Source: a virus (taxonomy: Duplodnaviria > Caudoviricetes). From it: a DNA stretch of 64,000 nt. The stretch covers positions 20,388-84,387 of the IMG/VR virus record IMGVR_UViG_3300042731_002921; one strand, given 5' to 3'. Positions 1,944-50,742 of the stretch are shown piece by piece. The position numbers and the translations under genes were made by a program. The notes under the pieces were generated by a model. That model was given only the letters and a program-made list of their open reading frames with translations. It was not told the origin of the DNA and did not search any database. Numbering within the stretch: the first letter of the stretch is position 1; every line of letters starts with the position of its first letter.

Positions 1944-2162
1944 ATGAAAAGATTTGCAGTTGGTTATATGAATTTCTTTGATAATGATTTGATTGTTGAT
2001 GTTGTAGAGGCTGTTGATTGGTTTGAAGCTATTAAAAAACATAGATCACTACTACAAGAAGCTAATGAATGGTTCTCTGAAATTGAGTCTTTAAAACTTG
2101 AGGATGTAAAAGACAAATTCTTTAATAACGAAGAATTAATTGATGTAAAAGAGATAATATAA
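1944..2162 (+). CDS. hypothetical protein
   Basis: Start reassigned to ATG 1944 after AGGAGAGG. Confidence 0.7.
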   Translation: MKRFAVGYMNFFDNDLIVDVVEAVDWFEAIKKHRSLLQEANEWFSEIESLKLEDVKDKFFNNEELIDVKEII

Positions 2163-2171
2163 GGAGAAAGC

Positions 2172-2441
2172 ATGGATATCAAAGAGATAATGAAAATTAA
2201 TGTTGATACGCTTAGACAAACACAATACGAAGCTCTTAAAAACCATGTTATTGATATACTTGATAAAATTAAATTCTTAATTAAAGATGATGACTTTAAT
2301 ACAATAGAGAAATTTTTAGAGTATTCACCAGCATGTGATGGTTATGTGGAAGATAATAATTTTATTGACTTTAGTTATAATGATGAGTATCCTTTGGGTA
2401 TTAAAGAAGTCATAGAAGAATTAAAATCATTTTATAAGTAG
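2172..2441 (+). CDS. hypothetical protein
   Basis: ORF with AAGGAG RBS. Confidence 0.7.
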   Translation: MDIKEIMKINVDTLRQTQYEALKNHVIDILDKIKFLIKDDDFNTIEKFLEYSPACDGYVEDNNFIDFSYNDEYPLGIKEVIEELKSFYK

Positions 2442-2449
2442 GAGAATAT

Positions 2450-2551
2450 ATGAAAAGATTTGCTGTAGGCTATATGAACAGAGGACAGAATACTATAATA
2501 TATAAAGATTGTATTAAGAAAATTTGTACAACAATGAATGAAGATAATTAA
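2450..2551 (+). pseudogene. truncated paralog of the 1944 gene
   Basis: Same first 10 aa MKRFAVGYMN with synonymous differences, then diverges and stops at 33 aa. Confidence 0.5.
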
Positions 2552-2567
2552 AACAAGGAGAATTATT

Positions 2568-3251
2568 ATGAGTGAATTTACTATTAATGAAGACAGAACA
2601 AAAGGGATGATCAAGGACGTTGTTTTTGGATATGTAAAACTACAAGGAGGTGCTTTCAAATATCAGTCAACAACAGAGAGAGAATGGGCAGTTGATTGTA
2701 TTGTTGATAAAAATACTGCAAAGTCATATAAAAAAGTATTCCCAAAAAATGTGTATAAAGAGATTGATACCGATGAATTTGAAGATAAATATAGAATTAA
2801 ACCACCTTTTCTTGATCAAGATGAACAATTCATTCTTAAGGTAAAAGCTAATGCTAACCTTAGAACTGATATACCAAAAGCTGGCCTTAGAGAAGGTGAT
2901 GAAATCCCATATGGATGGAATACAAGACCAAAAGCTTTTGTACCTGTTGAAGGTGGTATCCAAGATATTACCATGGAAAAGCTTATTGCTAATGGTAGTA
3001 AAGGTGATGTTTCAATTAAGATTATTGAGAATTCATATGGTATTTTTCCACAACTTACTGGTATTCTTGTTACTGAGCTTATTGAATATGAACAAAATGT
3101 TAATGATTCTGATTTCGGTGAGGTTATTGGCGGTTTGAATCCAGGTAATGGTAATATCAAGCAAGTTGCTACTGAGAATGAAGAAGTGGCTTCAAATCCT
3201 GGTATTAATGATTCACCAACGAATGATTACGGAGATGGGATACCATTTTAG
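2568..3251 (+). CDS. ssb: phage single-stranded DNA-binding protein
   Basis: OB-fold-like core (FGYVKLQ...EWAVDCIVDK...LIANGSKG), acidic tail ending DYGDGIPF, near helicase; AAGGAG RBS before ATG 2568. Confidence 0.75.
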   Translation: MSEFTINEDRTKGMIKDVVFGYVKLQGGAFKYQSTTEREWAVDCIVDKNTAKSYKKVFPKNVYKEIDTDEFEDKYRIKPPFLDQDEQFILKVKANANLRTDIPKAGLREGDEIPYGWNTRPKAFVPVEGGIQDITMEKLIANGSKGDVSIKIIENSYGIFPQLTGILVTELIEYEQNVNDSDFGEVIGGLNPGNGNIKQVATENEEVASNPGINDSPTNDYGDGIPF

Positions 3252-41440: not shown

Positions 41441-43084
41441 ATGACACTTGAGATAAGAAAGAAAAAAACAGATATTAAGAAAAGTGGTTTAACAAATGAT
41501 GTTGATAGTGATCTTTTTAATATAAAAGATGCTACAGATCCTACTAAAACCATTACTTTTGATTTATCTGGTATAACAACAGGTACAGAGAGGACTATCA
41601 CAATTCCTGACAGGGATTTTACTGGTGGTGAATTGTCTACAGATCCATCTCCAGTACTCGCAGCAGATTTAGATGCAGCCGGTTATTATGCTACTGATTT
41701 ACAGAATACACAGGATACTCTTGCTACTGAGCCTAAATATCTATTTGACGGGACAAATGATGCTGCTGTAGTTGCTGATAATGCAAGCCTTGATGTTGGT
41801 ACTGGTGATTTTTATATTGCAATGGCTATTAATCCTTATGATGTTACAAGAGAAACTGATTATATTATAAATAAAGAAGCAGCTGGTATTGGATATGGTC
41901 TTTATCTTAATGAAGATGATCTTTATATAAGACTTGATGATGACACAGCAGATGCTTCAGCAATTATTGGGTCTGGTGTATTTAGTAACAATACAGAAGC
42001 AATTGTAGTAGTAAGTTTTGATCGTAGTGGTAATGCTACTGCATATATTAATGGTGCATCAGTTGGTACCGTTGATATTTCTGGATCTGCTCTTACGCTT
42101 GATAATGCTGGTGATTTGCATATTGGTAATGATTCTGCTGGTACTAATGAATTTTATGGTGAGATAAGGCTTTGTGCTATTGGTAATAAAACTCTTACTG
42201 CTACAGAAGCAAAGAGAATTTCTAATGGTCTTACTACATCTTATGAGTACGCTGGTGCAAGTCAGACTGAATTAATGCCTAATCAAGTTGACAGGGATTT
42301 TTCTGGTGCAAGTGCTTGGGCTAATGTAGACTTCAATTCTTATGATGAGACAGATGATTTAACTGTAACTGCTACTGCTGCTGAACAATATGCAACTCTA
42401 TTAGCTGCAAGCGCACCTACTACTATTGGTAAACGTTATAGAATGACTTTTGATGTAGCAAATATTGTTTCTACTTTTACTATACAGAGTTTTGATGGTA
42501 CTCAGGAAATTGGAACTGTATCAGCAGATGGTACTACGCAGAATCTTGATTGGACAGCAACAACTACTGGTGGTTATCGTATTGTAGCTGATGCTGATGA
42601 TTCAAGTGCTGATTTTGATAATTTTACACTCACACAACTTGGATGTGTTTTTGAAGTAGATTCTTCTGGTGTTGGTCATAATACTTGGGAGGATATCAAT
42701 GGTAATGAGCTTCATGCTGATGTATCTGGTGCTATTCCTTTTAATCTTCCTGCTAATCATACAGAGAAGTACATCAATCTTGGAATTACTGATGATGTAA
42801 CTTTTACATTACCTAAAGATTATATTATTGATGCTATTGCTATTAAATCATCTGGTGCTATTGGTGGTGGAATTGATATTGGTACTACTGATGGTGGTGG
42901 TGAGATTGTGACAGCAGAAACTATTTCTGGTGCTGGTACTGTTCTTGCTACACTTGTAGCTGCTGCTAATTATAATACTACAGGTGCTGATGATACTATT
43001 TACATATCTGATGCTGATGGTACAGGATGGGATGGTGCAACTGCTGGTATTGTTGTAAAGATGTCAAAAGTTGGTTTGAGTTAA
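41441..43084 (+). CDS. LamG/concanavalin-A-like domain virion protein
   Basis: YLFDGTND...GTGDF...SFDRSGNATAYING...LHIG...FYGEI LamG signature; fiber-like N-terminus. Confidence 0.8.
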   Translation: MTLEIRKKKTDIKKSGLTNDVDSDLFNIKDATDPTKTITFDLSGITTGTERTITIPDRDFTGGELSTDPSPVLAADLDAAGYYATDLQNTQDTLATEPKYLFDGTNDAAVVADNASLDVGTGDFYIAMAINPYDVTRETDYIINKEAAGIGYGLYLNEDDLYIRLDDDTADASAIIGSGVFSNNTEAIVVVSFDRSGNATAYINGASVGTVDISGSALTLDNAGDLHIGNDSAGTNEFYGEIRLCAIGNKTLTATEAKRISNGLTTSYEYAGASQTELMPNQVDRDFSGASAWANVDFNSYDETDDLTVTATAAEQYATLLAASAPTTIGKRYRMTFDVANIVSTFTIQSFDGTQEIGTVSADGTTQNLDWTATTTGGYRIVADADDSSADFDNFTLTQLGCVFEVDSSGVGHNTWEDINGNELHADVSGAIPFNLPANHTEKYINLGITDDVTFTLPKDYIIDAIAIKSSGAIGGGIDIGTTDGGGEIVTAETISGAGTVLATLVAAANYNTTGADDTIYISDADGTGWDGATAGIVVKMSKVGLS

Positions 43085-43194: not shown

Positions 43195-45759
43195 ATGTTT
43201 GGTCCTGCAAGTAAAAGACAAGCAGAGATGCTGAATTCTAATGCTGATTTAACCATCATCGGTGGATCAATGGGCAGTGGTAAAGGGAGTCCTTTGCGTA
43301 CCCCTGTAATCACTCCGTGGGGCGAAAAAAAGATCGGTGATTTAGAAATTGGTACGATTATTTCCGGGCCTGATGGTTCACCACAAAAAGTGATTGGGAT
43401 ACAAGACAAAGAGATTCAAGATGTTTTTACTGTGACTATGGATGATGGTAGCTCTTTAGAGACTGATGCTGATCATTTATGGTTAATCCATAAAACAAGG
43501 TCACAAAAATCAAAAACTACTGGTAATTTTCATAGTAGATCTTTTGAGAATAGTTGTCTTATGAATACGTTAGAGTTAAAATCTTTTCTTGATAAAAAAC
43601 AAGATGCCAATGATTCAGCGTTTATAAAAGACCAGAACCTAATTATACCTCTTTGTGATCCAATTGGGTTTAACACTAATTATAAACATAAAATACCACA
43701 TTATGTGTTGGGTGCTTTACTTGGTGATGGGTGTATGAGTCAAAGTGGATATAATATTACTCTAACCACGGCTGACAATGAGATTTTACAAAAATTTAAT
43801 TCCTATAATTACCCATTGTATAAAATTAATTCATCAAAATACGGATATCTGCTAAAGAATAACACAGGAATTAAAGATGATTTAGATGATCTTGGATTAC
43901 TTTGTAAAAAGTCAGGAACAAAGTTTATACCGGAATCATACAAGTATTCATCAATAGAGAAGCGATTTGAATTAGTTAGAGGATTAATGGATACTGATGG
44001 GTATGTTAATATAAAAGGACATTTGTCTTATACATCTGTTAGTAAGAGGTTGGCAGAGGATTTTCAATGGGTTGTTAGGAGTTTAGGTTGTAAAGCAAAT
44101 ATAAGATCAAAAAAATCTGGTTATAAAGATACAAATGATAATTACATTCAGTGCCAAGACTCTTATACTGTGGCTTTTAAACCAGCATATGCTCCACAAA
44201 GATTTGTAAATTTAACGAGAAAAAAAGTTAGATGTAGAGAATTTAATGGTGGCTTATCTGTTGTAGGAAGAAGAATAGTCTCAGTCGAGAAAACAGGTTT
44301 TGAGAGAACTCGCTGTATAAGTGTTAGTCATCCATCAAGACTTTATGTTACAAATGACTTTATTGTAACTCATAATTCTTACATATTAAATTTAATACCA
44401 CTTAGATATATTCATGATCCTGAATTTAACGGTGTTTGTTTTAGAAGAAATACTAAACAAATTCGTGGTCAGGGTGGAATGTGGCAAACAGCAAAATCTA
44501 TTTACAATCAACTACCTAAAGAATATAAACCAACATTTAGAGAATCTGATTTAACTGTTACATGGCCTAACGGTGCAAGCATGGTTTATTGTCATCTTGA
44601 ATATGAAAAAACGGCAGATGAACATCAAGGTTTACAATATTCTCTTGAGTTATTTGATGAGTTAACCAGTTTTACTTGGTATCAGTTTGAGTATTTACAA
44701 CAAAGATTAAGATCTGGTGCTGATATGGAATCAAGGGTTGTCGCGTCTTGTAATCCTGACAGAAACCATTTTACATATGATCTTGTTAAATGGTGGTTGA
44801 ATGAAGAAGGATACCCAGATGATAAAAAAAGAGGTAAGCTAAGATACTATGTAAGAAGGAATGATGATTTTATATGGGCTTCTAATCCTAAAGATTTAGA
44901 TAAATATCTTGAAGAAGAAGGTGAAAGGCCTATTTCAGTTGAATTCATTGGGGCAACAATTTACGATAACCCACCAATGATTAAAAAAAATCCTGGTTAT
45001 TTAAGTATGCTAAAAGGCCAGAGTGAAATAAATAAGGCAAGAAATCTATACGGTTGTTGGGAGGCAGTACCAGAAGCTTCTGGACATTTTAAACGTCAGT
45101 GGTTGAATAAATACGATAAACTACCATCTGATGGAGTAAAAGTTAGGGCTTGGGATAAAGCTCAAACAAAACCATCTGAAGTTAATAGATATCCAGATTT
45201 TACAGCTTGCTGTGGAATGATGAAAACTTCAGATGGGGAGTACATTATATTTGGAGATCACCATCCAGATAATAAAGATGAAGATTTAGGATATTACGGT
45301 AAATTTAGGGAGAGAAGTGGTAAGAGAGAGCAAATTATATTAAAACAGGCTCAATATGACTCCAAAGATTGTAAAATTGTTTTACCGCAAGATCCTAATG
45401 GGCAAGCAGAATTTTTACAAAGTGCAAGTAAGTTAACTTCTGAGGGATTTATAGTAAAAAAAGATCCAGCAAAAAGCACAGCAGGTAAGCTAATAAGATA
45501 TGAACCTTTTAGCTCGGCATGTGAAAATGGTCTTGTTGGTATAGTCGAATCAACATTTGATTCTAAAACGTTAGAAATGTTTTATAAAGAACAAGAGGAT
45601 TTTACAGGCGAACGTAGCACAAGATCTTATAAAGATGATTGGCCTGATAGTACAAGTTCTGCTTTTAATTATCTTTCACAAGAACAATCTATCCCAATAG
45701 TAAGAAGAAACCAGAAGAGTAATACAACAAAAACAGCAGTAGTTCTTGCTGTAAGATAA
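43195..45759 (+). CDS. terL: terminase large subunit with intein
   Basis: GGSMGSGK|S, FRR, LFDELT, ASCNPD, GCW, RAWDKA, QDP, DDWPDSTS. Confidence 0.95.
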   Translation: MFGPASKRQAEMLNSNADLTIIGGSMGSGKGSPLRTPVITPWGEKKIGDLEIGTIISGPDGSPQKVIGIQDKEIQDVFTVTMDDGSSLETDADHLWLIHKTRSQKSKTTGNFHSRSFENSCLMNTLELKSFLDKKQDANDSAFIKDQNLIIPLCDPIGFNTNYKHKIPHYVLGALLGDGCMSQSGYNITLTTADNEILQKFNSYNYPLYKINSSKYGYLLKNNTGIKDDLDDLGLLCKKSGTKFIPESYKYSSIEKRFELVRGLMDTDGYVNIKGHLSYTSVSKRLAEDFQWVVRSLGCKANIRSKKSGYKDTNDNYIQCQDSYTVAFKPAYAPQRFVNLTRKKVRCREFNGGLSVVGRRIVSVEKTGFERTRCISVSHPSRLYVTNDFIVTHNSYILNLIPLRYIHDPEFNGVCFRRNTKQIRGQGGMWQTAKSIYNQLPKEYKPTFRESDLTVTWPNGASMVYCHLEYEKTADEHQGLQYSLELFDELTSFTWYQFEYLQQRLRSGADMESRVVASCNPDRNHFTYDLVKWWLNEEGYPDDKKRGKLRYYVRRNDDFIWASNPKDLDKYLEEEGERPISVEFIGATIYDNPPMIKKNPGYLSMLKGQSEINKARNLYGCWEAVPEASGHFKRQWLNKYDKLPSDGVKVRAWDKAQTKPSEVNRYPDFTACCGMMKTSDGEYIIFGDHHPDNKDEDLGYYGKFRERSGKREQIILKQAQYDSKDCKIVLPQDPNGQAEFLQSASKLTSEGFIVKKDPAKSTAGKLIRYEPFSSACENGLVGIVESTFDSKTLEMFYKEQEDFTGERSTRSYKDDWPDSTSSAFNYLSQEQSIPIVRRNQKSNTTKTAVVLAVR
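43285..44376 (+). mobile_element. class-3-type LAGLIDADG intein (364 aa) starting with Gly
   Basis: GSGK|GSPLRTPVITPWG; DHLW (Trp), TRCISV (Cys), IVTHN (Thr) | Ser+1; LGALLGDG / RGLMDTDG. Confidence 0.9.
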
Positions 45760-45898
45760 TCCGATTTTTAAAAACCAGGTGGTTAAGCAGCGGGTACAGG
45801 AGTTGCTGTCTGCGGATGATCAGGAAATTGTTTGATATCTAAGACTTTACCATCCTGATGAGATGATTGATTAAAAAAATTTAATGAGGGTATATTGT

Positions 45899-46306
45899 AT
45901 GAAAACATATTCAAAAGATAACCCTATAATCGTGCGTAGTGGGGGCAAAATTCTGGTGCCGTATAACGTCGAGAATTATACAGACTCGGAAGATAACGAA
46001 GGGTATCAATTTAATTACTTTGAGATTGATGATACCGGCCAGGATCTCACTGATGAGACAGTTGTTTCCGGCTTGACAGCCATGGTTAACAAGCACATCG
46101 GCACAAAAATTCTTGGTGTGATGTGCTCTGCAACAGCGGAAGATCAGTGGGGGCTTGGAACTATCCAATCATATATATCTGCTGGAAACAATACCGAATT
46201 TCATTTTTCCAACGGAAATACTCTGATTTTGACGCCCGAAAATATCAACGAGTTTGAAACGGCTTGGGTCGCATTTCGGCAAAGCTTTTTTGCTACGGAG
46301 TCATAA
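45899..46306 (+). CDS. tail-fiber-associated hypothetical protein
   Basis: GVMCSATAEDQWGL...F.NGNTL.LT.EN..EF...W..FR.SFF pattern. Confidence 0.6.
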   Translation: MKTYSKDNPIIVRSGGKILVPYNVENYTDSEDNEGYQFNYFEIDDTGQDLTDETVVSGLTAMVNKHIGTKILGVMCSATAEDQWGLGTIQSYISAGNNTEFHFSNGNTLILTPENINEFETAWVAFRQSFFATES

Positions 46307-47565
46307 TGAACAATATTATGTTATTTGGTGGGGGGATGTTACGGAGCGCTGCCGATAGAAGATACATACAGCGTAACAAAGCTGTTATTTACGGAGTGAG
46401 ATGGGATTATGTGAACGATGTCATGGTAAAAGGGATTATCATTGGTGGTGTATTTATAGAAACTGATTATAATAACTTTCCTATACAAGAGCAGATGGTG
46501 CGTGGATTGCTGACATCTGCTGGAGAATTTATGTTGCTTGACGCAAGCGACAGTTCCCAGTTGGCGTCTGGTGGGGCGGCAACGCTGGATGGCTCAGTCG
46601 GTCAGGTTATGGTTCGTATTCCAAAATTTTATACGCTATGCCTTAAGGATGGTGATTATCGGTATGTATTAATTTCGGATTCATCGTTTTCATTTTTAGG
46701 TAACGACGCTTGGATACCGCCGGCTTTTGGATCTGATAACTATCGATATATAAGCGCATTTCAAGGAGTTGCGGCAACTGATACTGTTGATGCTGATCTT
46801 ATAAGTGCTGTTAAAGATACTTCGGCATATACAACAAATTTATATCCAAATCCGTTTTCAAATAGAACGCGGGCGCAATTCAGAGCACAGCAACAATCTG
46901 GATTCTTTCAATTTTCTTGGGGGTTGTATGAGATTGTCTGGATGTTGTTTTTAACGGAGTATAAAACATGGAACTCTCAGGCTGTACTGCCCGGATACAC
47001 AGAAGCAAGTTCATATAGTTATTCGTATGCACGGAAGGCTGGCAGAACATTGTCGCTCGGCAATGCATCCGGAAGCGTGCTTGTTGATCTAGCTGGTGAT
47101 GATTCGGATTTGTCAGGGATAGTAGCTGTCGATAAGTATGTAGCTAATAGTTATCGCGGGATAGAGAACTTTTTTGGCAATGCCTATCAGTTCATTGATG
47201 GGATAAACATAGACAATACAACTGGCGATTGTCATGTCTATGTGTGTCACACTCCTGACGATTTCGCTGACGACACCGGAACAAATTATATTGATACTGG
47301 CCATGCCCCGGCTTTTGGAGATGCTGGCGATTATATTAAAGATATGGCCTTCGTTGGTGAGGCTGTTACGTTTTACCCGGCAGAATTGGGCGGGACATCC
47401 AGCACATACATCCCTGACTATCACAGCAACAGTGCCGGGGGTTGGCGTGTCCTGTTTGCGAGTGGCTTTCTGTCGTATGGCGCGGGTGCGGGGCTTGGTC
47501 GTATGAATGCGTTTAGCGCCTCCTCATATTACGCTTCGCTTACCTCCACGCGCTCGGCTGCTTAA
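46306..47565 (+). CDS. C-type-lectin-fold (Mtd/FGE-like) receptor-binding protein with DGR-type variable region
   Basis: GQVMVRIPKFY, YISAF, MLFLTEYKTWNSQ, YRGIENFFGN...IDG; C-terminal RVL..G....GA.AG...N....S........R. Confidence 0.85.
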   Translation: MNNIMLFGGGMLRSAADRRYIQRNKAVIYGVRWDYVNDVMVKGIIIGGVFIETDYNNFPIQEQMVRGLLTSAGEFMLLDASDSSQLASGGAATLDGSVGQVMVRIPKFYTLCLKDGDYRYVLISDSSFSFLGNDAWIPPAFGSDNYRYISAFQGVAATDTVDADLISAVKDTSAYTTNLYPNPFSNRTRAQFRAQQQSGFFQFSWGLYEIVWMLFLTEYKTWNSQAVLPGYTEASSYSYSYARKAGRTLSLGNASGSVLVDLAGDDSDLSGIVAVDKYVANSYRGIENFFGNAYQFIDGINIDNTTGDCHVYVCHTPDDFADDTGTNYIDTGHAPAFGDAGDYIKDMAFVGEAVTFYPAELGGTSSTYIPDYHSNSAGGWRVLFASGFLSYGAGAGLGRMNAFSASSYYASLTSTRSAA

Positions 47566-47585
47566 ATTTTGTTGGGGGTTCAATT

Positions 47586-47906
47586 TTGAAGAAAATTTAC
47601 TGATTTTGCTGAAGAAAATACACAGCTCGACGGGCCTAAGATATTAATTGGAGACGTGGTGAATCGTGAAATTATCATCACCGGCACCGCGTCAAAAAAT
47701 TTAAATACAGCCGAAACAACTCTGGAATGTGTTTGGCATTGCAGTTCGAATTTGTCGGCACTCAGGAAAAACGTATAGTTTTTATCGGGTCAGATGTACT
47801 CATCGACCAGGTCGAAAGATACGCAAAAGAAATTCCGTTTCAGGCAACAATCAAGAAGATTGATAGGTACTATAGTACTACAGGAGGTAGATATTATGAG
47901 AATTAA
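47586..47906 (+). pseudogene. small DGR-neighbour gene with two frameshifts
   Basis: Reconstructs MKKFTDFAEENTQLDGPKILIGDVVNREIIITG.RVKKFKYSRNNSGMCLALQFEF...IVFIGSDVLIDQVERYAKEIPFQATIKKIDRYYS; +1 at 47592-47595, -1 at ~47686. Confidence 0.75.
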
Positions 47907-48249
47907 AGACTTAGAGGATGGCAGTAAAATTCTTGATTTTCAAAGTCCTAAGATTAAAGATGTTGTTGATCTAATTAAAACAATTAATAAATTATACGAG
48001 GATGGGTACACGATAAATGAAGATTTTTCACCGAAACATTGTCCTCAAATTTTTAGATTAATTGGTTTAAGATTCATAAAAAAAGAAGAGATTTGTGCAG
48101 AAACAAATGATGAAGTTGATATTGATTCATTAACAAAAAAAGAAGATCTTTTGAATTTTGCTGATGATAACGGGATTAATATTCCAGAGGATATCGTTTA
48201 TCCAGCGAGTATTAAAAAATATTTAAAAGAAAATATTGGATCTAAATAG
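47896..48249 (+). CDS. hypothetical protein preceding portal
   Basis: AGGAGG RBS, ATG 47896, AT-rich again. Confidence 0.75.
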   Translation: MRIKDLEDGSKILDFQSPKIKDVVDLIKTINKLYEDGYTINEDFSPKHCPQIFRLIGLRFIKKEEICAETNDEVDIDSLTKKEDLLNFADDNGINIPEDIVYPASIKKYLKENIGSK

Positions 48250-49871
48250 TGTCTGATACACAAACTATACATAAAGCTGAGTCTTCAAAAAGTACAATAC
48301 CAAAGACTACTGTTAGACAAGAGGTAGGTCAACCAAGGATTGTTACGAGTAATAGATTTATTGATGATCAAAGGAAAACTGATCTTAAAATGCCGACGAG
48401 ATTAATTACTTTTGATAATATGTATCTTGATGATTGCGTATATAATTCTATAGATGTAACTAATCTCCTTGTAATTACTGCTTTGTATGGTGGCAAGTAT
48501 GTTTCTGGTCCATCTAATAGCAAAGTAAGTAAAATTGCTGCACAGAAACTTAATTATGATATAAGAAATATGTCTTATGGGACGTATCTTGAATTTCTTC
48601 AAAATGCTTGTACTGATTTAAGGTATGGATTCAGCCTCCAAAACATAGTCACTGAAAAAAGAAAATATGGTCCGTATAAAGGTTCCTGGTGTTTAAGAAA
48701 ATTATCACCGAGAAATCAAAAGAGTATTTATGGTTGGCTATGGAATAAAAATCAAACAGAACTCTTAGGATGTGTTCAACAACCGAGGTTAAAAGGCACA
48801 AGACAATTTAATTCTCTTGTTGGATTTAAGAATGATGGTATTAGAGCCATAGCAGAAGGTAAGTATTATGAGTCAAATTACCCTATAATTAAATCTAACC
48901 AAATGCTTCATTTTAAATATAATTCTATTGATAATAATCCACAAGGTGATAGCCCTTTAGCCCATTGTTATACTGCTTGGATGGAAAAAAGGCTTATTGA
49001 AGAATATGAAGTAATTGGTATTTCTAAAGATCTTGGTGGGATTGTTGTTTTAAGAGTTCCATCTAAGCTTATTGAGCAGGCAAATGATAGAACAAATTAT
49101 CCAGATGCTTATGCTGAATATCAGGCATTACAGACAAATACAGCAGATTTACATGCAGGAAAATCTTCATTCATAGTCCTTACGTCAGATTCTGATGTGA
49201 ATTCAAAAAAGTATTTTTATGATTTTGAGTTAAAAGGTATAGATGGAAATGGAAAACAATATGACACAAGTAATGTCATAGATCAAAAAAGAAAAAGTAT
49301 TTATAATTGTTTTGGTACGGGTTTTCTTTTACTTGGGCAAGATTCTGTAGGGTCTTATAATCTTTCATCTAATGCTACAAGCACTCATGGGTATTATGTA
49401 GAAAGAAATATCTTACAAAAAGTTGATGTCTTAAATACTCAATTAGCTCCAAGATTGCTTGCTATTAATGGTGTATATCTTGATTATGAGGATATGCCTG
49501 TATATGAACCTATTAATCCTACTGAGACAAGTAAAGATGAAATGAGTAAGGTGGTTCAAAGGATGGCAAGTGTTAATAAAATGACGCAAAAAGCTCTTGA
49601 GGCTGTATATGAAGAACTTGGTTGGGACATTGATGGTATTGAAGATCTAGATTTTACTGATAAAGGTAAGTCAAGGGCTGGGGATGGGATGACTACCGCA
49701 GGCGAAGGCACCTCCCAATCATATGGTGGTGAGAACGGTTCTGATGCTTCGGTTGCAAATAATGAGAATGCAAATATGAGTAAGTCTTTGGTTTATGATT
49801 ATGAAACTGAAAATCAAATAGTCTTAATTGATACAGCTTCTGGCAACCCTTTGTTTATTGATAAGGAGTGA
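48249..49871 (+). CDS. portal protein
   Basis: YGFSL, KLSPRNQ, NNPQGDSPL..CY.AW, IGISKDLGG; position after terL. Confidence 0.9.
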   Translation: MSDTQTIHKAESSKSTIPKTTVRQEVGQPRIVTSNRFIDDQRKTDLKMPTRLITFDNMYLDDCVYNSIDVTNLLVITALYGGKYVSGPSNSKVSKIAAQKLNYDIRNMSYGTYLEFLQNACTDLRYGFSLQNIVTEKRKYGPYKGSWCLRKLSPRNQKSIYGWLWNKNQTELLGCVQQPRLKGTRQFNSLVGFKNDGIRAIAEGKYYESNYPIIKSNQMLHFKYNSIDNNPQGDSPLAHCYTAWMEKRLIEEYEVIGISKDLGGIVVLRVPSKLIEQANDRTNYPDAYAEYQALQTNTADLHAGKSSFIVLTSDSDVNSKKYFYDFELKGIDGNGKQYDTSNVIDQKRKSIYNCFGTGFLLLGQDSVGSYNLSSNATSTHGYYVERNILQKVDVLNTQLAPRLLAINGVYLDYEDMPVYEPINPTETSKDEMSKVVQRMASVNKMTQKALEAVYEELGWDIDGIEDLDFTDKGKSRAGDGMTTAGEGTSQSYGGENGSDASVANNENANMSKSLVYDYETENQIVLIDTASGNPLFIDKE

Positions 49872-49872
49872 A

Positions 49873-50742
49873 ATGTTTAATAAGTATTATTTATATTGGA
49901 TTCATCGTCCTTGTCATAATAATATTAACAAAGAAGGTTATATTGGTATTACTAAACAACCATCCAGGCGTTTCTTTGAGCATAAGTGTGATGCTTATAA
50001 TAGGCCAAAAACAATTATTCATCACGCATTAAATAAATATGATGATTGCATGTTTAATGTTTTGTGCATAGGATCTAAAAAATATATCGCTAATTTAGAA
50101 TATAAATTACGACCAACATCTTGTATCGGATGGAGTATCTCTGTTGGTGGCGAAATAACTATGAGAAATTATCAATTTACTAAAAAAGACAGAGATAAAA
50201 TTTCTGATAGTCTTTGTCAAATTGCTTTAATTGATGTATTTAATATATGGTTTGATTGGTTTGAAAAGGCTTATAAAATTGATGAGATAGTTGATAAATA
50301 CCTTATTTCAAAAACTCATGCTTACAGAATAATTAGTTGTAAAGGTAATAGATTATTAAGATATTCACTACTATATACAACTTTTAGAGAAAATTCATTA
50401 CGTAAATCGAATAAAATTTCAGAAGATATCTACGATAGGATTTTATATTTAAGAGAAAGTGGTAAAGAATTACAGGAGATTGCTGATGCATTTGGAATTG
50501 CAAAATCGTCAGTCAAAAGGTATTGCAATGGTGATGTAAAATACACTGAGAATTTTAAAAATTATAGAGTTGTTCAAGGATCTTCTGGAACTGGTACAAC
50601 TCAAGATGGTGGTGGTGCTGTAAGTACTAACAATATGGAGAATACTGATATAAGTAAAAACTTAGTATTTGAATATGAAGATGATAATCAAATAACATTG
50701 GTCGATACAAAAACAGGTATTCCAATTTTTATAGATAAATAG
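49873..50742 (+). CDS. GIY-YIG homing endonuclease with fused portal-like C-terminal tail
   Basis: YLYWIH...GYIGIT..PSRRFFEH; HTH; last 34 aa are 20/34 identical to the portal end. Confidence 0.85.
   Translation: MFNKYYLYWIHRPCHNNINKEGYIGITKQPSRRFFEHKCDAYNRPKTIIHHALNKYDDCMFNVLCIGSKKYIANLEYKLRPTSCIGWSISVGGEITMRNYQFTKKDRDKISDSLCQIALIDVFNIWFDWFEKAYKIDEIVDKYLISKTHAYRIISCKGNRLLRYSLLYTTFRENSLRKSNKISEDIYDRILYLRESGKELQEIADAFGIAKSSVKRYCNGDVKYTENFKNYRVVQGSSGTGTTQDGGGAVSTNNMENTDISKNLVFEYEDDNQITLVDTKTGIPIFIDK

What the first reader, a model, noticed from the sequence alone, without database searches (positions are those of the whole stretch)
45760..47906. Orphan diversity-generating-retroelement relic parked between terL and portal
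Seen: a ~2.1-kb island (sampled lines 43-60% GC versus ~28% in the flank) starts with the 3' end of a lost gene (NQVVKQRVQELLSADDQEIV*). It carries a fiber-chaperone-like gene and a 419-aa CLec-fold protein. The last ~125 nt (47440-47565) read RVLFASGFLSYGAGAGLGRMNAFSASSYYASLTSTR. Most positions where this fold's consensus has Asn hold NNT/NNC codons (TTT, TAT, GGT, CGT, AGC, TAC, GCT, CTT), as expected after adenine mutagenesis of AAY. A doubly frameshifted ~100-aa gene follows, of a type I recall next to DGR reverse transcriptases. No TR, avd or RT is in the window. Known: Bordetella BPP-1 Mtd/VR/TR system. Inference: a frozen diversified receptor-binding protein captured without its RT, or a remote target diversified in trans. 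Its location in the head module is atypical.
Basis: partly seen in the sequence, partly recalled or inferred. Interest (0 to 1): 0.8.

Follow-up and report, generated by a model that had tools for sequence, protein, structure and literature searches.

The report
Truncated DGR cassette stranded in phage
A complete 84-kb phage carries, between its terminase and portal genes, a foreign 2.1-kb piece of a diversity-generating retroelement: the hypervariable binding protein with its adenine-mutated tip and a broken accessory gene, cut off exactly where the template repeat and reverse transcriptase should start, so the once-variable tip is now most likely frozen.

Summary
Window 45776-47879 is a 43% GC island in a 31.6% GC phage. 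Two related phages that were inspected have terL, a small gene and portal with nothing in between.

The island holds:
- a 135-aa gene whose relatives carry DUF4376;
- a 419-aa protein with a C-type-lectin fold (TaqVP, Z 19.5);
- a roughly 98-aa gene broken by two frameshifts.

About three quarters of the homologues with enough flank are followed by a reverse transcriptase. Most also have a template repeat that differs from the gene's 3' end almost only at adenines. The closest complete cassette (L001) runs target, accessory gene, TR, RT. Window homology to it stops where its TR begins.

Against that TR, the window's last 134 nt differ at 22 of 30 adenine positions and at 15 of 104 other positions. 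This stretch is the most A-poor in the whole window.

The complete genome, which has terminal repeats, holds no RT and no TR. Pattern scans of IMG/VR and of one genome per prokaryote species found no compatible TR.

Best reading (0.85): a horizontally acquired, truncated DGR cassette with a frozen variable region. Diversification in trans is not excluded (about 0.06).

The accessory gene is not Avd. It is an unannotated, widespread, OB-fold-like family. RT-less relatives are common (19 of 79 loci), so novelty is moderate.

The parts
43195..45759 (+). Left flank: large terminase gene, interrupted by a LAGLIDADG intein. Native phage DNA.
   Evidence: Pfam Terminase_6N 9e-22, Terminase_6C and LAGLIDADG_3 2e-12. 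47% identical to terL of relative L081, down to the last residues.
45760..45898 (+). Left junction and leader of the island. GC rises from about 45776.
   Evidence: In relatives L081 and L083 the terL stop is followed within 0-15 nt by the small gene. No homologue of the 24-aa peptide was found in 165 loci. No flanking repeats.
45899..46306 (+). 135-aa gene co-transferred with the target. It is the partner gene of this target family; relatives carry DUF4376 and are annotated as tail-associated.
   Evidence: The homologue P0103 (72%) lies on the same 22.5-kb contig as the closest target homologue P0002. The N-terminal domain recurs next to the target in L090, L100, L088, L098, L102, L107 and L007. 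The L090 and L100 versions hit DUF4376 and PHROG tail families. The window copy hits no family.
46306..47565 (+). 419-aa C-type-lectin-fold DGR variable protein, of tail-fibre type. Intact ORF.
   Evidence: PHROG 5302 'tail protein' 4e-65. 101 homologues. AF2 pLDDT 86. TaqVP Z 19.5, then FGE and Mtd. BFVD tail collar fibre and crAss-like tail proteins. Non-VR dN/dS against L001 about 0.04.
47429..47562 (+). Former variable region (VR), 134 nt. It corresponds to the VR and TR of cassette L001.
   Evidence: Against the L001 TR, 22 of 30 A positions differ and 15 of 104 non-A positions differ (Fisher p 2e-9). 9.7% A, the minimum of the window. The family alignment shows a fixed scaffold with hypervariable positions.
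47586..47882 (+). Pseudogene of the roughly 98-aa OB-fold-like DGR accessory protein. It has a +1 shift just after the start codon (about 47589-47592) and a -1 shift at about 47684.
   Evidence: DNA alignment to L001. Two-frame tblastn at 81-82% identity. The intact copy P0196 lies on the closest donor-like contig. AF2 pLDDT 91 and SSB/PriB-like matches at Z 5-6.8.
47875..47895 (+). Right junction. Homology to the DGR cassette ends in the last codons of the accessory gene, where the TR begins in L001. The native ribosome-binding site of the next phage gene follows.
   Evidence: Alignment column about 500. blastn homology to L001 runs 46385-47874.
47896..48249 (+). Right flank: native 117-aa gene that precedes portal in the relatives inspected.
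   Evidence: 41% identical to L081:7502-7885, E 2e-29. Gene order terL, 122-128-aa gene, portal in L081 and L083.
48249..49871 (+). Portal gene (context).
   Evidence: Pfam Portal_Mu 1e-5. 66-72% identical to the portals of L081-L083.

Best explanation
The island is a fragment of a phage DGR cassette. It entered a DGR-free phage by illegitimate recombination, between the terL stop codon and the ribosome-binding site of the next gene.

In the donor lineage the order was: DUF4376-type gene, CLec-fold tail-fibre-type variable protein, OB-fold-like accessory gene, TR, RT. There the RT copied the TR with errors at adenines, and the copy replaced the last 134 nt or so of the target gene.

The fragment kept here ends in the last codons of the accessory gene, so the TR and RT are missing. 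Without them the variable region cannot be rewritten. One particular outcome of adenine mutagenesis is fixed in the genome.

The useless accessory gene has since picked up two frameshifts. The two upstream genes remain intact. They have overlapping stop and start codons and lie in the sense orientation inside the late operon, so they are probably expressed as a fixed-specificity binding module.

Shown here: foreign origin, cassette homology, breakpoint position, adenine signature, absence of RT and TR, and the broken accessory gene.

Inferred: expression, incorporation into the virion, any role in host recognition, and whether the TR and RT were never captured or were captured and later deleted.
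For: 1. The genome is complete: direct terminal repeats, 100% by CheckV. It has no RVT_1 match, no tblastn match to the L001 RT, and no TR-like copy of the VR on either strand. The best ungapped match is 50% or less.

2. This is a DGR target family. In 57 of 80 IMG/VR loci and 36 of 80 metagenome loci, a repeat 100-550 nt downstream differs from the gene's 3' end almost only at its adenines. 60 of 79 unique loci with at least 2.5 kb downstream have an RT.

3. L001 (target 69% identical) has target, 99-aa ORF, TR and RT, with RVT_1 at 5e-18. The window aligns through the VR and the 99-aa ORF and stops at the TR start.

4. Adenine signature: 22 of 30 A positions differ against 15 of 104 non-A positions, p 2e-9. 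A content is 9.7%, the window minimum.

5. Two frameshifts lie in the accessory gene. The closest relative's copy, P0196, is intact. dN is only 0.094 against L001 with saturated dS, so the gene was under constraint until recently.

6. Relatives L081 and L083 have terL, a small gene and portal with no island. The complete relative G001 has no RT and no target homologue (positive control).

7. The island's 43% GC equals that of donor-like contigs, 42-47% (L001, L086, L088, L090, L100). The phage is 31.6%.

8. The fold is a DGR variable-protein CLec fold.
Against: - No reads could be mapped, so VR polymorphism in the population is untested.
- The last 17 nt of the VR plus the stop codon match L001's VR end exactly. 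The target end that a related DGR would recognise may therefore still be usable.
- The frameshifts rest on a single assembly that I could read. The second contig with the identical 419-aa protein could not be fetched.
- Nothing shows that the protein is made or is part of the virion. None of the donor-type tail genes upstream of the target in L090 or L007 has a homologue in this genome, so a docking partner is not evident.
Confidence: 0.85

Rival explanations
1. Remote target still diversified in trans. A DGR in the host chromosome, a prophage or a co-infecting phage supplies the RT, accessory protein and a matching TR, and rewrites this VR during infection.
For: DGR components can act in trans and on non-adjacent targets (Wu et al. 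2018, PMC5758913, read). The 3' boundary of the VR is identical to that of the active L001 VR over its last 17 nt. The target ORF is intact.
Against: Permissive pattern scans, with N at all A and divergent positions, found only L001 itself in IMG/VR. They found nothing in one genome per prokaryote species. The L001 TR is incompatible at 15 non-A positions. The cassette's own accessory gene is broken. Wu et al. argue that remote targets are not expected for phage-borne systems, since they would not be inherited together. The only other assembly on record encodes the identical 419-aa protein.
Confidence: 0.06
2. The donor was already RT-less. The VR was frozen long before transfer, and the phage simply acquired an ordinary fixed tail-fibre gene that descends from a DGR target.
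For: 19 of 79 family loci with enough flank have no RT. L088 and L100 carry an identical VR in two samples, and L100 has no accessory gene, TR or RT downstream. L007 and L136 keep the accessory gene but show no RT.
Against: The window keeps the accessory gene directly after the VR, in the order seen in the active L001 cassette. The break falls exactly at the TR start. The closest lineage has an intact accessory gene. The accessory gene shows strong past constraint, dN 0.094.
Confidence: 0.06
3. Assembly artefact. A chimeric metagenome contig placed 2.1 kb of another phage between terL and portal.
For: The record is a metagenome assembly. The island's GC differs sharply from its flanks.
Against: The insert sits precisely in a short intergenic spacer, and both flanking genes and the downstream ribosome-binding site are intact. 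No repeats lie at the joints that could mislead an assembler. The identical proteins are recorded on two contigs, the longer of 84,554 bp. The genome closes with terminal repeats.
Confidence: 0.03

Closest known systems
Bordetella phage BPP-1 DGR (Mtd, VR, avd, TR, brt)
   Same: A C-terminal VR in a CLec-fold receptor-binding-type protein. Adenine-specific differences from a TR, centred on AAY codons. The cassette order in relatives is target, accessory gene, TR, RT.
   Different: Here the TR and RT are absent from the whole genome. The accessory gene is a broken OB-fold-like gene, not the four-helix-bundle Avd. The gene lies between terL and portal, not in a tail module. Fold similarity to Mtd is only moderate (Z 7.0).
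Thermus aquaticus DGR variable protein TaqVP (PDB 5vf4)
   Same: The best structural match for residues 62-416: Z 19.5, 253 aligned, rmsd 3.2. The same CLec-type fold with the variable residues at the C-terminal end.
   Different: 15% sequence identity. TaqVP is a cellular protein with an adjacent working DGR.
IMG/VR contig IMGVR_UViG_3300007535_000517 (L001): complete DGR of the same family
   Same: Target 69% identical. The accessory protein is 81-82% identical to the window's read-through. 72% nucleotide identity across 46385-47874.
   Different: L001 continues with a TR (1901-2034) and an RT (2160-3173) and has an intact accessory gene. It lacks the upstream 135-aa gene.
Non-adjacent or remote DGR targets (Treponema, Legionella; Wu et al. 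2018, PMC5758913)
   Same: A VR-bearing target gene with no adjacent RT.
   Different: Remote targets share a genome with their TR and RT. Here the complete genome has neither.
Tail fibre proteins of crAss-like phages (BFVD matches; GenBank cr111_1, cr55_1 and others)
   Same: The same fold and a tail annotation: Foldseek E 1e-25 to 1e-29, TM up to 0.75. 24-27% identity by tblastn.
   Different: Distant in sequence, longer N-terminal anchors, and located in tail modules.

Membership tests
Autonomous diversity-generating retroelement | A DGR-type reverse transcriptase encoded in the element | tested here: not met
   No RVT_1 match at E<=1 in the complete 84,387-bp genome. No tblastn match to the L001 RT. 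The same queries find RTs in 60 of 79 related loci.
Autonomous diversity-generating retroelement | A template repeat that matches the VR except at adenines | tested here: not met
   An ungapped scan of both strands of the whole genome gave a best match of 50% or less. The self-blast method that detects TRs in relatives was run on the fetched loci only.
Autonomous diversity-generating retroelement | An accessory gene next to the TR and RT | tested here: inconclusive
   A homologue of the cassette's roughly 98-aa accessory gene is present but carries two frameshifts. It is not Avd.
DGR variable (target) protein, C-type-lectin fold | A CLec/FGE-type fold with the variable residues at the C-terminal end | tested here: met
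   AF2 pLDDT 86. TaqVP Z 19.5, FGE Z 7.6, Mtd Z 7.0. Foldseek prob 1.0 to 5vf4.
DGR variable (target) protein, C-type-lectin fold | Homologues are paired with a TR and an RT, with adenine-specific mismatches | tested here: met
   TR/VR pairs with about 90-100% of mismatches at TR adenines in 57 of 80 viral loci and 36 of 80 metagenome loci. RT in 76% of loci with enough flank.
DGR variable (target) protein, C-type-lectin fold | The VR of this copy bears the adenine-mutagenesis signature | tested here: met
   Against the nearest TR, 22 of 30 A positions differ and 15 of 104 non-A positions differ, p 2e-9. 11 of 12 AAY codons are changed, with the third base kept in all 12. A content 9.7%, the window minimum. 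The comparison uses a heterologous TR, since its own TR is unknown.
Avd (accessory variability determinant; the 23S rRNA-IVS four-helix-bundle family, named from my own knowledge) | A basic protein of about 120-130 aa forming a four-helix bundle | tested here: not met
   The intact homologues are 96-99 aa. They have no Pfam hit at E<=1. They fold as a five-strand beta-barrel with one helix. The best fold matches are SSB/PriB OB folds at Z 5-6.8.
CH1 accessory protein (Wu et al. 2018) | 160-169 aa, acidic (pI about 4.7) | tested here: not met
   The length of 96-99 aa differs from the description read. The pI was not computed.
DUF4376 tail-associated proteins (for the 135-aa gene) | A match to PF14301 above its cut-off | tested here: inconclusive
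   The window copy has no hit. Homologues of its N-terminal domain in L090 and L100 hit PF14301 at 2e-7 and 2e-9, and PHROG tail families. The C-terminal halves differ.

The most novel reading that the evidence does not exclude
The stranded VR is not dead. It is a phage-borne remote target that is rewritten in trans when this DGR-free lytic phage meets a related DGR, resident in the host or in a co-infecting phage. A phage would then borrow hypermutation machinery it does not encode.
Probability: 0.06. Interest if true: 0.8.

Novelty: new variant of a known kind. Interest (0 to 1): 0.45.

Why it matters
DGR surveys start from the reverse transcriptase. They therefore cannot see what happens to diversified genes once they leave the element.

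This locus is a clean, well-bounded example. A DGR-evolved binding module, with one outcome of adenine mutagenesis fixed, has been exported by horizontal transfer into an unrelated phage that has no DGR. It sits at an unusual place, the packaging/head junction, and the now useless accessory gene is caught in the act of decaying.

About a quarter of the family's loci lack an RT. Together with that, it suggests that 'diversify, then freeze and spread' may be a regular route by which phage receptor-binding genes evolve.

It also gives a testable case for whether such orphan VRs can still be rewritten in trans.

A by-product: the broken gene belongs to a large, unannotated, OB-fold-like family that takes the place of Avd in many DGR cassettes. 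That bears on the open question of how Avd-less DGRs work.

Tried and rejected
I could not fetch the 22.5-kb contig with the closest target, partner and intact accessory genes (P0002, P0103, P0196), nor the second 84,554-bp assembly of this phage.

2. Pfam and PDB sequence searches of the 419-aa protein gave nothing. Only PHROGs, homologue context and fold comparison were informative.

3. A weak 48-50% ungapped similarity of the VR to the minus strand inside the GC-rich start of terL was set aside as compositional.

4. The 24-aa open frame at the island's left end had no homologue in 165 loci. 'Tail of a lost gene' stays unverified.

5. No direct or inverted repeats flank the island, so no transposon-like or site-specific mechanism is indicated.

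6. I looked for a target-recognition hairpin downstream of the VR. None beyond chance was found in the window or in L001 (z +0.8 and +0.9). L016 has a strong one (z -4.9). Nothing can be concluded about target competence.

7. Promoter and terminator scans were at chance level.

8. Literature searches for orphan, inactive or degraded DGR targets in phages found no description of such relics. This is absence in the searched library only.

9. The Avd and CH1 identities proposed for the broken gene were rejected (see the membership tests).

10. dS against L001 is saturated, so the capture cannot be dated.
Full report
**1. What is at the coordinates**

The window is the last 64 kb of a complete 84,387-bp virus record with direct terminal repeats. 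Between the large terminase gene and the portal gene lies a stretch whose GC is 37-56% in 200-nt windows, against 27-36% on either side. The terminase gene is 43195-45759, with a LAGLIDADG intein. The portal gene is 48249-49871.

The stretch 45776-47879 averages 43.0% GC. The rest of the genome averages 31.6%.

It contains three genes on the + strand:
- A 135-aa gene at 45899-46306. The start is set by its ribosome-binding site and by homologues.
- A 419-aa gene at 46306-47565, whose start codon overlaps the previous stop.
- A roughly 98-aa reading frame at 47586-47882, split over two frames with its start codon in a third.

The one exception is the 20-residue 'tail of a lost gene' (45773-45835), which could not be tied to anything.

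**2. The island is an insertion**

Three related phages have portals 66-72% identical. L081 and L083 were inspected. There the terminase stop is followed directly, or within about 15 nt, by a 122-128-aa gene and then portal. L082's gene order was not examined.

The window's gene at 47896-48249 is the homologue of that small gene (41% identity, E 2e-29). The terminase is homologous to its very end.

So about 2.1 kb has been placed between the terminase stop and the ribosome-binding site of the small gene.

The one complete relative (82,544 bp, terminal repeats) has no reverse transcriptase and no homologue of the 419-aa protein anywhere. The same profile finds the window's own gene at E 1e-199.

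No repeats mark the joints.

The island's GC matches that of the contigs carrying its closest homologues, 42-47%. This fits a fairly recent horizontal acquisition from a higher-GC phage lineage.

**3. The 419-aa protein is a DGR variable protein**

It has no Pfam or PDB sequence match. It does match PHROG 5302, 'tail protein', at 4e-65, and it has 101 database homologues.

Their alignment shows a fixed C-terminal scaffold interleaved with hypervariable positions.

An AlphaFold model built on that alignment (pLDDT 86, pTM 0.89) gives these matches:
- The Thermus aquaticus DGR variable protein TaqVP fits far better than anything else: Foldseek E 3e-6, and VIA Z 19.5 with 253 aligned residues at rmsd 3.2.
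- Formylglycine-generating enzymes follow (Z 7.6), then Bordetella phage Mtd (Z 7.0).
- Among predicted viral structures, the matches are tail collar fibre proteins and crAss-like tail proteins.

**4. The family is actively diversified elsewhere**

I fetched 80 IMG/VR loci and 80 metagenome loci that encode homologues. A self-comparison then looked for repeats whose mismatches fall on adenines of one copy.

- In 57 viral loci and 36 metagenome loci, a repeat of 100-150 nt lies 100-550 nt downstream of the gene. It differs from the gene's last 100-150 nt at 13-32 positions, nearly all of them adenines in the downstream copy.
- Of 79 unique loci with at least 2.5 kb downstream, 60 carry an RT detectable with the L001 RT as query.

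**5. The closest complete cassette defines the breakpoint**

L001 is a 4.5-kb IMG/VR contig whose target is 69% identical. Its layout is:
- target (127-1566), with the VR at 1430-1563
- a 99-aa ORF (1583-1882)
- TR (1901-2034)
- RT (2160-3173, RVT_1 5e-18)

The window aligns with L001 at 72% nucleotide identity, continuously from 46385 to 47874. That span runs through the target, the VR and the 99-aa ORF. Similarity ends in the last codons of that ORF, at the point where the L001 TR starts. Immediately after comes the native ribosome-binding site of the phage's own small gene.

The TR and RT are therefore missing by truncation at a defined point, not merely undetected. Whole-genome checks agree:
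- no RVT_1 hit at E<=1
- no tblastn hit with the L001 RT
- no second copy of the VR on either strand

**6. The adenine signature**

The window's last 134 coding nucleotides were set against the L001 TR. They differ at 22 of its 30 adenines but at only 15 of its 104 other bases (Fisher p 2e-9).

Of the TR's 12 AAY codons, 11 are changed in the window.

The stretch has 9.7% A, against 26.5% in the rest of the gene. It is the most A-poor 134-nt stretch of the whole 64-kb window.

The 15 non-adenine differences show that the L001 TR is not this VR's own template. That template is unknown.

**7. The broken gene**

The window copy reads residues 2-33 in one frame and residues 34-99 in another, at 81-82% identity to L001. 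The start codon is in a third frame. Neither shift lies in a long homopolymer.

The closest lineage is a 22.5-kb contig that also holds the closest target (73%) and the closest 135-aa gene (72%). It has an intact 99-aa copy that shares most of the window's distinctive residues.

dN against L001 is only 0.094, with saturated dS. The gene was therefore under constraint for nearly all of its history, and the frameshifts are late events. This fits loss of function after separation from the RT.

This protein is not Avd:
- It has no Pfam or PHROG hit.
- It folds with high confidence (pLDDT 91) as a small beta-barrel with one helix.
- Its best solved matches are SSB/PriB-type OB folds, at a middling Z of 5-6.8.

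It is conserved at 45-60% identity across cassettes whose targets are only about 30% identical. It occurs either between the VR and TR or just after the RT. It is present in 19 of 60 RT-positive loci. It has 1,356 database homologues; those listed are unnamed or 'hypothetical'.

**8. The 135-aa gene**

The homologues of its N-terminal half lie directly next to the target gene in at least seven other loci, on either side. The L090 and L100 versions carry DUF4376 and match PHROG tail families.

In L090 the order is this gene and then the target, directly abutting, behind large baseplate-like genes. The pair therefore looks like a unit. 'Chaperone' is a guess.

**9. Relic or remote target?**

Points in favour of a relic:
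- the absence of TR and RT from a complete genome
- the break exactly at the TR start
- the decayed accessory gene
- a DGR-free phage lineage
- IUPAC patterns built from the VR, with N at every adenine-derived or divergent position, found only L001 in IMG/VR and nothing in one genome per prokaryote species
- the only other assembly on record encodes the identical protein

Points that keep a trans reading alive:
- no read mapping was possible
- the metagenome collection was not pattern-scanned
- the VR's 3' boundary is identical to that of the active L001 VR

I put the relic at 0.85, trans diversification at about 0.06, a donor that was already RT-less at about 0.06, and an assembly artefact at about 0.03.

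**10. How unusual is it?**

RT-less members of this family are not rare: 19 of 79 loci. Examples:
- L088 and L100 carry an identical VR in two samples, and L100 has no accessory gene, TR or RT downstream.
- L007 keeps the accessory gene but shows no RT in the 1.8 kb that follow it.

Losing the engine while keeping the product thus seems recurrent.

Three things are particular here. The truncated cassette has been transplanted into an unrelated, DGR-free phage. The breakpoint is cleanly defined. The location is between terminase and portal instead of a tail module.

I found no description of such relics in the searchable literature. The large surveys detect DGRs through the RT (PMC5758913, PMC8144416) and so would not list them.

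**11. Limits**

The best donor-like contig and the second assembly of this phage could not be examined.
- Expression, virion incorporation and any effect on host range are inferences.
- No homologue of the donor-type tail genes upstream of the target (L090, L007) exists in this genome. How the protein would attach to this virion is open.

Noticed in passing
L001:1583-1882; also L008:12545-12832, L031:4826-5113, L136:3983-4267; window 47586-47882 (broken copy): A conserved 96-99-aa protein sits in many DGR cassettes of this target family, between VR and TR or just after the RT, in cassettes with no room for an avd. It has no Pfam or PHROG annotation. Its AF2 model has pLDDT 91 and an OB-fold-like barrel, with SSB/PriB matches at Z 5-6.8. 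It has 1,356 homologues, unnamed or 'hypothetical' where listed, including in MAGs of several bacterial phyla. It may be an undescribed accessory factor that replaces Avd.
   Followed up: partly
L088:2912-4093 and L100:3-536: Two contigs from different samples carry an identical VR. In L100 the target is followed by a DUF4376 gene, a 171-aa gene and a holin-like gene, where L001 has accessory gene, TR and RT before its own holin-like gene. This looks like a second, independent RT-less and apparently frozen member.
   Followed up: partly
L007:9839-12378: A 521-aa target in a tail module is followed by a DUF4376-like gene and an intact-looking accessory gene. There is no RT or TR in the remaining 1.8 kb, which is GC-rich and has no clear ORF. 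It may be another decaying cassette.
   Followed up: no
window 43195-45759: The large terminase carries a LAGLIDADG intein of roughly 370-400 aa after its Walker-type N-terminus. No intein-like match was seen in the part of relative L081's terminase that was compared (its listed ORF aligns only from window residue 427).
   Followed up: no
window 49828-50742: A GIY-YIG plus HTH endonuclease gene overlaps the portal's 3' end. It ends with a diverged copy of the portal's last 25 residues or so.
   Followed up: no
window 41441-43084: A 547-aa protein with a Laminin_G_3 (concanavalin-like lectin) domain is encoded just upstream of terL. It is a second adhesin-like gene in the packaging region of this phage.
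   Followed up: no
L016:11222-11250 and L005:1642-1670: A perfect GC-rich hairpin lies 6 nt downstream of the VR (DNA fold z -4.9 for L016). It resembles the target-recognition hairpin known from BPP-1. L001 and the window have no such hairpin.
   Followed up: partly
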